Virus record (IMG/VR): IMGVR_UViG_2541047933_000012
Length of the DNA stretch: 38,540 nt
Reading direction: 5' to 3' (one strand)
DNA from: a virus
Lineage: Duplodnaviria > Heunggongvirae > Uroviricota > Caudoviricetes
In this document: positions 24,350 through 24,685 of the stretch, in pieces
How the letters are laid out: each line of letters starts with the position of its first letter
Position numbering within the stretch: position 1 is the stretch's first letter
The notes under the pieces: model-generated
What the model was told of the DNA's origin: nothing
The model's database searches: none
What the model saw: the letters and a program-made list of their open reading frames with translations, nothing else
Program-made: the position numbers and the translations under genes

Positions 24350-24685
24350 TTATTTTACATCCCAAGGTAGTTCCTCAAGAGAGAAGACTAATTCATTATC
24401 AATAATTTCGTATTCTGCATAACCTTCAACCTCTCCTGAGAAGTTATTGTCAACGCATCCTTCATAATAGCTATATGGTGCTATAAAGTGAAACCCATAT
24501 TCATCTATCTCTGTGATTTCAAAATTGTAGTAATCGTAAGAATATCGAATATCATCATCAGAAATAGAACTAAGTACATAGTTATTAAATTTATCGGAAT
24601 GCTTAACGATAAGTTCTGACAACGCGTCAAGATTCTCTGGAGAGATATTTCCTAACGGTAATCTGTACTCAACGGCATTAATCAT
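24350..24685 (-). CDS. Strongly acidic, Tyr-rich hypothetical protein (late-operon moron)
   Basis: 111 aa with about 24 Asp/Glu against about 5 Lys/Arg; strong AGGAGG site upstream; visibly AT-rich relative to neighbours. Confidence 0.45.
   Translation of the reverse strand: MINAVEYRLPLGNISPENLDALSELIVKHSDKFNNYVLSSISDDDIRYSYDYYNFEITEIDEYGFHFIAPYSYYEGCVDNNFSGEVEGYAEYEIIDNELVFSLEELPWDVK

What the first reader, a model, noticed from the sequence alone, without database searches (positions are those of the whole stretch)
24350..24685. Strongly acidic Tyr-rich moron in the late operon
This 111-aa protein has about 24 acidic and about 5 basic residues, a consensus AGGAGG site and a terminator hairpin at its 3-prime end. 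It lies between the Q-dependent tR-prime and the holin. Extreme acidity at this size is typical of DNA-mimic anti-restriction proteins and some immunity proteins.
Basis: partly seen in the sequence, partly recalled or inferred. Interest (0 to 1): 0.6.

Follow-up and report, generated by a model that had tools for sequence, protein, structure and literature searches.

The report
Acidic prophage cargo protein, function unknown
A real, conserved but uncharacterised small acidic protein sits as an insulated cargo gene between the late-gene antiterminator and the lysis genes of an E. coli prophage. It does not resemble the known DNA-mimic anti-restriction proteins, so that idea remains an untested guess.

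Summary
Window 24350-24685 (minus strand) encodes a 111-aa protein with 24 D/E, 5 K/R, 12 Tyr and net charge -19. It has an AGGAGG site, lies between a tR'-type hairpin and the holin, and has its own terminator. The gene is real: synonymous sites between the E. coli, Salmonella and Citrobacter copies are saturated, while pN is 0.17-0.24.

It belongs to a small family (phrog_13663, about 24 clusters at 50% identity). All named members are Enterobacterales and all are annotated hypothetical. In nine clusters it lies in the prophage late region between the Q gene and the lysis cassette, alongside three or more Q families and four holin types. In four of these it is next to an M.EcoGII-sized PF01555 methyltransferase. 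Three other clusters lie in chromosomal, non-phage settings.

New here: a 13-bp hairpin buries the ribosome site and start codon. It has the highest opening energy of 50 window genes, and other sequences do the same job in relatives.

Function is unresolved. My best guess (about 0.35) is a low-dose inhibitor that binds a nucleic-acid-binding protein.

The parts
24871..25623 (-). Q-type late antiterminator gene (upstream neighbour)
   Evidence: Pfam PF03589 Antiterm, E 2.7e-54. RefSeq annotates it as 'antitermination protein'.
24811..24839 (-). Putative late promoter PR' (TTGCAT, 17 nt, TAAGAT). It is inferred, not mapped.
   Evidence: This stretch is almost invariant between the window, phage mEp460 and PhiR47_1 (alignment A4). 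Hexamers were read from the sequence. The consensus scanner picked a different, weaker site at 24851..24822.
24736..24765 (-). tR'-type intrinsic terminator (GAACCCGC-TGTT-GAGCGGGTTT plus T-run), the upstream boundary of the cargo cassette
   Evidence: Terminator scan. Homology with mEp460 and PhiR47_1 ends directly after its T-run. The same stem is kept in Salmonella and Citrobacter cassettes behind a different Q family.
24712..24740 (-). Promoter-like element: TTTACT (24740..24735), 17-nt spacer, TATAAC (24717..24712). Its status is ambiguous.
   Evidence: The hexamers and the spacer length are conserved in three orthologues while the spacer sequence is not. However, the -10-like hexamer lacks T at its last position and coincides with the anti-SD arm. 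The scanner did not report it.
24681..24721 (-). Hairpin that buries the Shine-Dalgarno site and the start codon. The 5' arm is AUUAUAUAACCUC (24721..24709). The 3' arm is GAGGUUGUAUGAU (24693..24681).
   Evidence: 13-bp stem in the MFE structure of a 77-nt 5' region whose fold scores z = -3.0; the excised hairpin alone is -13.1 kcal/mol at 37 C. Opening -16..+3 costs 12.7 kcal/mol, rank 1 of 50 genes in the window (median 6.5, sd 2.3). Equivalent occlusion by other sequences occurs in Klebsiella, Pantoea and other members.
24690..24695 (-). Shine-Dalgarno site AGGAGG, 4 nt upstream of the ATG
   Evidence: Read from the sequence. GGAGGTT is invariant in three orthologues.
24350..24685 (-). Coding sequence of the 111-aa acidic, aromatic-rich protein (RefSeq WP_000606308.1, phrog_13663)
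   Evidence: phrog_13663, E 9.4e-54. Family found. Purifying selection. Structure model.
24309..24345 (-). The cassette's own intrinsic terminator (AAAGGCCG-TAACGAA-CGGCCTTT plus T-rich tail), the downstream boundary
   Evidence: One search reports it on the + strand because the long A/T extension of the stem uses up the T-run; that reason is my reading. The core GGCCG/CGGCC stem is followed by TTTATTATT on the - strand. It is conserved with compensatory stem changes in Salmonella (GGTCGC/GCGACC) and Citrobacter (GGCCGC/GCGGCC). Most of the other family loci read show a hairpin plus T-run just downstream.
23893..24198 (-). Holin gene, first gene of the lysis cassette (downstream neighbour)
   Evidence: Pfam PF16083 Phage_holin_3_3, E 7.5e-22. 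It is followed by an endolysin (GH24 per RefSeq) and a PF03245 Rz gene.

Best explanation
Shown: this is a self-contained, AT-rich cargo cassette of moron type, placed right after tR' at the head of the late operon of a lambdoid/e14-like E. coli prophage found in ExPEC/APEC strains such as UTI89, S88 and APEC O18. It encodes a cytoplasmic, very acidic (net -19), aromatic-rich alpha+beta protein of a small uncharacterised family whose named members are all Enterobacterales. The cassette carries its own terminator. Its ribosome-binding site and AUG are locked in a stable hairpin, so translation is predicted to be held low or conditional, even on the abundant Q-antiterminated late transcript. Inferred: the protein most likely works as a stoichiometric binder. 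It would use its negative surface and one conserved patch (D45, G76-C77-[K/R]78-D79, D/E104-E105, W108) to occupy the nucleic-acid-binding surface of a basic host protein. The leading candidate target is a defence or restriction nuclease, which would make it a functional analogue of DNA-mimic inhibitors without being a member of any known family. Confidence is about 0.9 for the cassette and protein description. It is about 0.35 for the inhibitor/mimic mechanism, and that is the figure given below.
For: Real, constrained gene: pN 0.17-0.24 against saturated pS. Acidity is a family trait: net -9 to -20 in all 25 members. The positions of most acidic residues drift, while a few polar positions are fixed. 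No signal peptide or hydrophobic segment is evident on reading the sequence (not run through a predictor). Position: nine clusters lie in the late region upstream of the lysis cassette, alongside three or more Q families and four holin types. The function is therefore tied to the phage cargo site, not to one Q or holin. Four of these are adjacent to a 348-353-aa PF01555 methyltransferase. That is the size and family of M.EcoGII, a prophage enzyme that is silent in lysogens and is thought to protect phage DNA from restriction (PMC5778455). The same cargo site in Klebsiella also holds toxin-antitoxin-type genes such as SocA_Panacea. Strong SD/AUG occlusion is recurrent: 12.7 kcal/mol in the window, and 10-18 kcal/mol in 7 of 8 stand-alone relatives, against 3 of 49 other window genes at that level. 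This fits a protein that is harmful or needed only in small amounts.
Against: Nothing beyond charge and context points to nucleic-acid mimicry. The fold resembles no solved DNA mimic, anti-CRISPR or anti-restriction protein. A late-operon position is the wrong time to protect incoming DNA, whereas Ocr is the first T7 gene expressed (my own knowledge). Co-location with the methyltransferase may only reflect a shared cargo site, and five of nine phage contexts lack it. Chromosomal members whose GC matches their surroundings exist outside prophages (L036 and L011 next to a ttcA-like gene), which suggests a cellular role. Fixed Cys/Asp/Trp positions are more typical of a specific site than of a charge mimic. 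No member occurs in 50,697 GenBank phage genomes.
Confidence: 0.35

Rival explanations
1. Lysogen-benefit (conversion) gene. It would be transcribed in the prophage state from a promoter inside the cassette. It would help the host, for example by excluding other phages, neutralising a competitor's nuclease toxin, or through a physiological role inherited from the chromosomal homologues. Late expression would be incidental and damped by the hairpin.
For: The downstream terminator is kept with compensatory changes although synonymous sites are saturated. That only makes sense if transcription not modified by Q crosses the gene. A -35/-10-like pair with constant 17-nt spacing is conserved in three genera. 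If the TATAAC hexamer is a real -10, transcripts would start downstream of the anti-SD arm and be translatable, while read-through late transcripts would be blocked. This is the logic known for T4 gene e (my own knowledge). Stand-alone chromosomal members have their own promoter-like and terminator elements (L034 has a consensus TATAAT). The family is in 131 of 5426 complete E. coli genomes but in none of 50,697 isolated phage genomes.
Against: The -10-like hexamer has C at its last position, and its conservation is fully explained by pairing with the SD/AUG. The scanner found no promoter there. There is no PADLOC defence match. No toxin lies next to any member. In Klebsiella the anti-SD lies downstream of the shared promoter-like motif, so the T4-like switch would not work the same way.
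Confidence: 0.27
2. Ligand-, metal- or signal-binding protein, or small enzyme. It would use a pocket or patch formed by the invariant Cys77, Asp79, Asp/Glu104-105, Trp108 and conserved tyrosines on an NTF2/cystatin-like cone. One possibility is a sponge for an immune signalling molecule.
Confidence: 0.12
3. Lysis-timing factor that binds the holin or endolysin (a cytoplasmic antiholin-like regulator).
For: It lies directly upstream of the holin in the window and in the Salmonella, Hafnia, Pantoea and Providencia rettgeri loci, and is co-transcribed late.
Against: The partner holins belong to four unrelated Pfam groups. In Klebsiella, about 4.5 kb of other cargo separates the gene from the holin. 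A terminator separates it from the holin everywhere. Chromosomal members have no lysis genes nearby.
Confidence: 0.05
4. Partner or inhibitor of the late non-specific (M.EcoGII-like) DNA methyltransferase, for example to neutralise leaky toxic methylase in the lysogen.
For: It is immediately adjacent to a PF01555 methyltransferase in four sub-families, in both gene orders. M.EcoGII is harmful when expressed constitutively (PMC5778455). Three of the four methylase-linked copies, those lying downstream of the methylase, lack strong SD occlusion and look translationally coupled to it.
Against: The window phage and the Salmonella, Citrobacter, Pantoea and Pectobacterium loci have no PF01555 gene at this site. 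mEp460 carries the methylase without this protein.
Confidence: 0.05

Closest known systems
Ocr (T7 gp0.3), DNA-mimic inhibitor of type I restriction and BREX
   Same: Similar size (111 against about 116 aa) and similar negative charge density. It is cytoplasmic and phage-encoded. The Ocr figures are from my own knowledge.
   Different: There is no sequence match. The predicted fold is mostly beta (six strands, two helices), whereas Ocr is all-helical. The gene is in the late operon behind tR', not the first early gene.
ArdA (plasmid/transposon anti-restriction DNA mimic) and small alpha/beta mimics (T4 Arn, PBS2 Ugi, AcrIIA4)
   Same: Acidic, small, and in the latter cases alpha/beta. The likely mode, binding a DNA-binding cleft, would be the same.
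Phage morons (for example lambda bor/lom and the HK97/HK022 morons, as defined by Hendrix and co-workers; my own knowledge)
   Same: Extra AT-rich DNA between genes that are adjacent in related phages. It has its own terminator, a promoter-like element and a mosaic distribution.
   Different: The promoter is unproven. The ribosome site is locked in a hairpin, which is not a usual part of the moron description.
T4 gene e (lysozyme) and soc translational control: SD buried in a hairpin on long transcripts, free on transcripts started inside the hairpin (my own knowledge)
   Same: A stable hairpin occludes the SD and AUG. A promoter-like -10 hexamer coincides with the 5' arm, so two transcript classes would differ in translatability.
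   Different: No transcription start has been mapped here. The direction of the switch would be the opposite (late read-through transcript blocked). The Klebsiella relatives do not fit the overlap.
M.EcoGII-type prophage methyltransferases (PF01555) at the Q-to-lysis cargo site
   Same: The same cargo site, late expression, and silence in lysogens. They are adjacent to this family in 4 of 9 phage contexts (PMC5778455).
   Different: It is an unrelated protein, and the window phage has no such methylase at this site.
NTF2-like / VirB8-like / cystatin-like alpha+beta rolls
   Different: Scores are at generic-topology level, sequence identity is 4-14%, and the strand order begins with an extra N-terminal strand. 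No family can be assigned.

Membership tests
Ocr (T7 gp0.3) family | Sequence homology to Ocr | tested here: not met
   No Pfam hit for any of the 25 family members. A PDB-wide phmmer and a profile search found only noise, E >= 0.18.
Ocr (T7 gp0.3) family | All-helical elongated dimer that imitates bent B-DNA | tested here: not met
Ocr (T7 gp0.3) family | Immediate-early expression from the leading end of the genome | tested here: not met
   The gene lies downstream of Q, PR' and tR', at the head of the late operon.
Ocr/ArdA-type DNA mimics (functional class) | Very high negative charge density | tested here: met
   24 D/E against 5 K/R, net -19 in 111 aa. The family range is -9 to -20.
Ocr/ArdA-type DNA mimics (functional class) | Binds and inhibits a restriction or other DNA-binding enzyme | not testable with these tools
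   This needs in vivo restriction-alleviation assays or binding assays.
ArdA | Sequence and fold homology, and location in the leading region of conjugative elements | tested here: not met
Phage moron | Extra DNA between genes that are adjacent in related phages | tested here: met
   mEp460 and PhiR47_1 share Q/PR'/tR' and diverge right after the T-run, carrying other cargo.
Phage moron | Base composition different from the surrounding phage genome | tested here: met
   33% against 50% GC. The ORF GC is also below the locus GC in all seven other phage loci compared (ORF 0.32-0.42 against locus 0.39-0.52), by only 0.04 in Pectobacterium L013.
Phage moron | Own transcription terminator | tested here: met
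   Hairpin at 24309-24345. It is conserved with compensatory changes, and most of the other family loci read show a hairpin plus T-run just downstream.
Phage moron | Own promoter active in the lysogen | tested here: inconclusive
   A conserved TTTAC(A/T)-17-TATAAC is present. However, the -10-like hexamer is atypical, and its conservation is equally explained by pairing with the SD/AUG. No transcription data were available.
phrog_13663 (PHROGs family, unknown function) | Full-length match to the family HMM | tested here: met
   E 9.4e-54 over residues 1-111 of 111. All 25 aligned members match it.
Polymorphic-toxin / colicin / CDI immunity proteins | Gene directly downstream of a cognate toxin gene in at least some members | tested here: not met
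   No toxin domain is adjacent in any of the 12 informative contexts.
Anti-CRISPR proteins | Adjacent aca (HTH) gene, or similarity to a solved Acr | tested here: not met
RNA thermometer (for the 5' hairpin) | SD hairpin that is marginally stable at 37 C and melts by about 42 C | tested here: not met
   Predicted -13.1 kcal/mol at 37 C and still -11.4 at 42 C. This is a prediction only.
NTF2-like superfamily | Significant structural match with the same strand order | tested here: inconclusive

The most novel reading that the evidence does not exclude
The protein is the founding member of a new structural class of phage-encoded inhibitors. It would be a beta-rich acidic mimic that disarms a host nucleic-acid-targeting defence. 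Its dose would be set by a two-transcript switch: the ribosome site is buried on the Q-antiterminated late transcript but free on a short transcript that starts inside the hairpin in the lysogen. The cassette, with hairpins on both sides, would move as a unit between lambdoid phages with unrelated Q proteins.
Probability: 0.15. Interest if true: 0.7.

Novelty: new member of a known kind. Interest (0 to 1): 0.42.

Why it matters
The gene is fixed in a prophage carried by extraintestinal pathogenic E. coli and APEC strains (UTI89, S88, IHE3034, APEC O18, the ATCC 11775 type strain). It has relatives at the same site in Salmonella, Klebsiella, Providencia, Pantoea, Pectobacterium and Hafnia prophages. 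This site is the one where Shiga toxin, tRNAs and non-specific methyltransferases are carried in other lambdoid phages. A conserved, tightly throttled, strongly acidic protein there is a reasonable candidate for a new anti-defence or conversion factor. The family is small enough to test directly. The ribosome-site-occluding hairpin at the first gene of a late operon is also a cleanly testable piece of phage gene regulation. If the protein proves inert in such assays, it is simply one more cargo gene of unknown function.

Tried and rejected
- Pfam, NCBIfam and PADLOC gave nothing for the protein. Pfam also gave nothing for the 25 family members.
- A PDB sequence search with the single protein and with the profile found only noise. 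The IpgC chaperone hit at E 0.2 is not significant.
- Foldseek against viral structures (BFVD) found nothing at E <= 0.001.
- The AFDB50 fold library was not available.
- Both genome-contig scans found no locus. Alignments A2 and A3 were too divergent for pattern scans.
- tblastn of four family members against 50,697 phage genomes found no match.
- Literature searches by accession, UniProt id, PHROG id and context terms found nothing on this family.
- P0019 (a 2661-aa DUF11 repeat protein) and P0029 in the HMM hit list are compositional or repeat artefacts, not fusions. P0005 matches only the N-terminal ~64 residues and carries an unrelated Pfam domain on a 920-nt contig, so it looks like an assembly chimera. 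The N-terminal extensions of P0006, P0018 and P0024 look like mis-called starts, since 106-aa versions exist.
- Leader-ORF coupling was considered. A 40-54-codon frame runs from PR' through tR' to 8 nt past the ATG in the window, but it is not conserved in Citrobacter, Klebsiella or others. Rejected.
- An RNA thermometer was considered. The hairpin is too stable at 42 C. Rejected.
- Rfam found nothing near gathering scores in 23800-25000.
- The apparent RY-x-YD resemblance to YD repeats is not supported by any Pfam hit.
- The nearly identical E. coli copies carry no informative variation in the 5' region.

Full report
**1. The observation**

- The ORF is at exactly 24350..24685, but on the minus strand.
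- It encodes 111 aa with 24 D/E, 5 K/R, 12 Tyr, 6 Phe and 1 Trp. Net charge is -19.
- My own pI calculation gives 3.6. The 4.05 from Biopython recurs unchanged for many family members and looks like a lower limit of that routine.
- It is the most acidic ATG-started open stretch (M to next stop) of at least 80 aa in the window.
- AGGAGG lies 4 nt before the ATG.
- The scanner found three terminator-like hairpins in 23800-25000, against 0.5 expected. One (24765..24744) lies between the Q gene and the ORF. Another (24309-24345) lies just after the stop codon.
- The neighbours are a PF03589 Q antiterminator and a PF16083 holin, followed by an endolysin (GH24 per RefSeq; no Pfam hit) and Rz.
- The ORF is 33% GC in a 50% GC window.
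- A stop-free run of 111 codons at this composition has probability 1.2e-4.

**2. Source of the window**

- From about position 4550 onward the window is identical to E. coli UTI89 (NC_007946, 2,903,528-2,942,067). There the gene is UTI89_RS14590 / WP_000606308.1, annotated 'hypothetical protein'.
- The full 701-nt query is present in 131 of 5426 complete E. coli genomes. The listed hits are ExPEC/APEC strains such as UTI89, NU14, S88, IHE3034, APEC O18 and ATCC 11775.
- The prophage has e14/CPS-53-like early genes, an HK97-type head and a contractile tail.

**3. It is a real gene and a cargo cassette**

- Among the E. coli, Salmonella (72% identity) and Citrobacter (69%) copies, synonymous sites are saturated (pS 0.78-0.83) while pN is 0.17-0.24.
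- Phages mEp460 and PhiR47_1 share the 3' end of Q, a TTGCAT-17-TAAGAT promoter-like stretch and the hairpin GAACCCGC...GAGCGGGTTTTT with the window. Homology stops right after the T-run.
- They then carry different cargo: a 138-aa ORF, a 67-aa ORF and a PF01555 methylase in one case, and four tRNAs in the other.
- So the upstream hairpin is the tR' equivalent, and the interval from Q to the holin is a variable cargo site.
- In Salmonella and Citrobacter the same cassette sits behind a different Q family (PF06530/DUF1133). Homology begins at that hairpin and ends after the downstream terminator.
- The downstream terminator is conserved through compensatory stem changes: GGCCG, GGTCGC and GGCCGC.

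**4. The family**

- The word-indexed search found only three full-length clusters.
- The exhaustive profile search over 1.84 billion representatives found 26 hits, of which about 24 are true members of 106-115 aa.
- All are phrog_13663, function unknown. No member matches any Pfam family consistently.
- The named members come from Escherichia/Shigella, Salmonella, Citrobacter, Klebsiella, Enterobacter, Providencia, Hafnia/Obesumbacterium, Pantoea, Pectobacterium, Serratia and Erwinia. All are annotated 'hypothetical'.
- All 25 aligned members are acidic, with net charge -9 to -20. Tyr and Phe interchange.
- Most acidic positions drift between members.
- A few positions are nearly fixed: F33, D45, Y48, G76-C77-(K/R)-D79, Y92, D/E104-E105 and W108.

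**5. Genomic context of relatives**

| Member | Context |
|---|---|
| Hafnia P0006 | Q(PF06323), 65 aa, PF01555 methylase, X, holin |
| Providencia P0008 | Q(PF03589), 64 aa, methylase, X, 81 aa, holin, lysozyme |
| P. rettgeri P0012 | Q, 64 aa, methylase, X, holin |
| Klebsiella P0022 | Q, small ORF, X, methylase, other cargo including SocA_Panacea, holins |
| Pantoea P0009 | NinG, HNH, YlcG, 207 aa, X, holin, lysozyme, Rz |
| Pectobacterium P0014 | X, Endonuclease_NS, holins, endolysin |
| Salmonella P0002 | Q, X, holins in four different phage backbones |

(X = the acidic protein.)

- With the window and the Citrobacter-type viral contig, nine clusters lie in the late region upstream of the lysis cassette. 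They sit beside three or more Q families and four holin types.
- Four of the nine are adjacent to a 348-353-aa PF01555 methyltransferase. That is the size and family of M.EcoGII, a prophage enzyme that is silent in lysogens and is thought to protect phage DNA (PMC5778455). I did not compare the sequences with M.EcoGII.
- Three clusters lie in non-phage settings. P0025 and P0010 are next to a ttcA-like PP-loop gene (PF01171); P0025 also has dbpA and corA nearby. P0016 is near corA and hicB.
- In P0025 (L036) and P0010 (L011) the ORF GC matches the locus. In P0016 (L034) it also does, at 0.39 against 0.40.
- No member is found in 50,697 GenBank phage genomes. IMG/VR prophage contigs do carry it.
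- One 37.7-kb circular 'plasmid' record is a related phage genome with an identical protein.

**6. Structure**

- With the 25-sequence alignment, AlphaFold gives pLDDT 86.7 and pTM 0.77.
- The topology is beta1, two helices, then five antiparallel strands including two long ones.
- No DNA mimic, anti-CRISPR, anti-restriction or immunity protein appears in the top 60.
- BFVD gives nothing significant.
- The protein is therefore not a member of the Ocr or ArdA families. The fold is a generic alpha+beta roll with no functional label.
- By strand alternation, the outward face of the long strands carries a ladder of acidic residues (E85, E87, E91, E93). The fixed residues 76-81 and 104-108 should lie at the same end of the sheet. 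This is inference, because I had no coordinates.

**7. Regulation: the new finding**

- The conserved upstream element TATATAACCT(C) is complementary to the SD and start codon.
- In the E. coli, Salmonella and Citrobacter 5' regions the minimum-energy fold is a 13-14-bp hairpin that buries GGAGGUUGUAUG. The z-scores of these folds are -3.0, -2.2 and -4.6.
- The window arms are 24721..24709 and 24693..24681. The excised hairpin folds at -13.1 kcal/mol at 37 C and -11.4 at 42 C.
- Klebsiella achieves the same occlusion with a different pair (UUUUUCACC/GGUGAAAAA). Pantoea uses AACUUC/GAGGUU plus pairing of the AUG.
- Opening positions -16..+3 costs 12.7 kcal/mol in the window. That is rank 1 of 50 genes (median 6.5, sd 2.3).
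- Seven of eight stand-alone relatives need 10.3-18.5 kcal/mol, a level reached by 3 of the 49 other window genes. The binomial P is 2e-8, though the background comes from a single phage.
- Copies that follow the methylase directly (L002, L007, L037: 8.5, 7.4 and 1.95 kcal/mol), and the chromosomal L036 and L011, are not occluded.
- Translation of the stand-alone phage copies is therefore predicted to be strongly throttled or conditional.
- This reinterpretation weakens the promoter reading of TTTAC(A/T)-17-TATAAC. The -10-like hexamer is the anti-SD arm, and it lacks the usual final T.
- Against that, a downstream terminator maintained by compensatory change is hard to explain unless transcription not modified by Q crosses the gene.
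- A T4 gene e-like arrangement would reconcile both facts. A start inside the hairpin would give a translatable short transcript, while long read-through transcripts would be blocked. This is a hypothesis, not a result.

**8. What it most likely does**

- Shown: it is a conserved cytoplasmic acidic protein. It is an insulated cargo gene at the head of the late operon. Its ribosome site is occluded. It often shares the site with anti-restriction methylases and other conflict genes.
- Inferred (about 0.35): it is a stoichiometric inhibitor that occupies the nucleic-acid-binding surface of a basic protein, most plausibly a defence nuclease. Its dose is kept low because the protein is harmful or needed in small amounts.
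- Main rival (about 0.27): a lysogen-benefit gene expressed from its own promoter.
- Lesser rivals: a ligand- or metal-binding protein using the Cys/Asp/Trp patch (0.12), a lysis regulator (0.05) and a methylase partner (0.05).
The functional analogy remains open.

**9. Verdict**

The DNA-mimic idea is untested and gains only weak contextual support. The family is uncharacterised, narrow and easy to test. The ribosome-site-occluding hairpin is a concrete new feature. Interest is moderate (0.42), and I class it as a new member of a known kind (phage cargo/moron genes).

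Noticed in passing
window 21950-22950: There is a second AT-rich island (30-37% GC) between Rz and the HNH/terminase genes. It holds a 74/83-aa ORF (22674..22898/22925, minus strand) with no Pfam hit. It also contains about 650 nt without any RefSeq annotation, in which short plus-strand ORFs occur. This is probably another cargo insertion in the late operon.
   Followed up: partly
window 1-4550: The left end differs from UTI89. It carries a 649-aa GmrSD-type (PF03235 + PF07510) modification-dependent restriction enzyme gene (225-2174, minus strand). It also has a GIY-YIG-domain ORF (3133-3738, plus strand) and an IS6/IS26-type transposase (3757-4485, plus strand). The window becomes identical to UTI89 only from about position 4550, inside the region UTI89 annotates as a phage tail protein, which suggests the IS has truncated that region.
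   Followed up: partly
window 24744-24765; L014 about 7920-7945; L029; L013: The tR'-type hairpin stem ACCCGC/GCGGGT followed by TTTTT(A/C)ATTT is almost identical behind unrelated Q families (PF03589 in E. coli, PF06530/DUF1133 in Salmonella). It also appears in a Pectobacterium phage, even though neighbouring synonymous sites are saturated. It may be a shared recombination joint or a constrained terminator.
   Followed up: partly
L002, L007, L008, L018-L020, L037 and mEp460 (L031): A 348-353-aa PF01555 methyltransferase (M.EcoGII size) is a recurrent tenant of the site between Q and the holin. In the Hafnia, Providencia and mEp460 loci a conserved 64-67-aa ORF precedes it. In the Klebsiella loci a small ORF and the acidic gene precede it.
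   Followed up: partly
L036 5256-5585; L011 1453-1785; L034 3628-3960: Some family members lie in chromosomal settings without phage genes. In L036 and L011 the gene is divergent from a ttcA-like gene (PF01171), with dbpA and a corA-family gene also nearby in L036, and ORF GC equals the locus GC. In E. coli K-12 the zntB-dbpA-ttcA region is the Rac attachment region (my own knowledge). These copies could therefore be old prophage remnants or a cellular branch of the family.
   Followed up: partly
plasmid record NZ_CP081716.1 (L038): A 37.7-kb circular 'non-mobilizable plasmid' of E. coli CX04 is a related phage genome carrying an identical copy of the protein. This suggests the phage type can exist as an excised circle. 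Its cassette differs only by one A fewer in the A-run before the SD and three further single-base differences, two within the ORF and two downstream in the holin gene.
   Followed up: partly
L010 about 3300-3315 and L018 about 7930-7945: The Pantoea and Klebsiella upstream regions share the 14-mer ATTTCTGACATAAC, although they are otherwise not alignable. It could be a -35-like CTGACA element (15 nt before TAGCAT or TAATAT) or an operator.
   Followed up: no
window 24678-24839, minus strand: A 53-codon frame (40 codons from the first ATG after the presumed PR' start) runs through tR' and the anti-SD, and stops 8 nt inside the acidic ORF. It is not conserved in relatives, so it is probably chance.
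   Followed up: yes
window 37586-38540: In UTI89, just past the integrase gene at the right end of the window, RefSeq annotates a hypothetical protein and a STAS-like-domain protein. I did not examine them.
   Followed up: no
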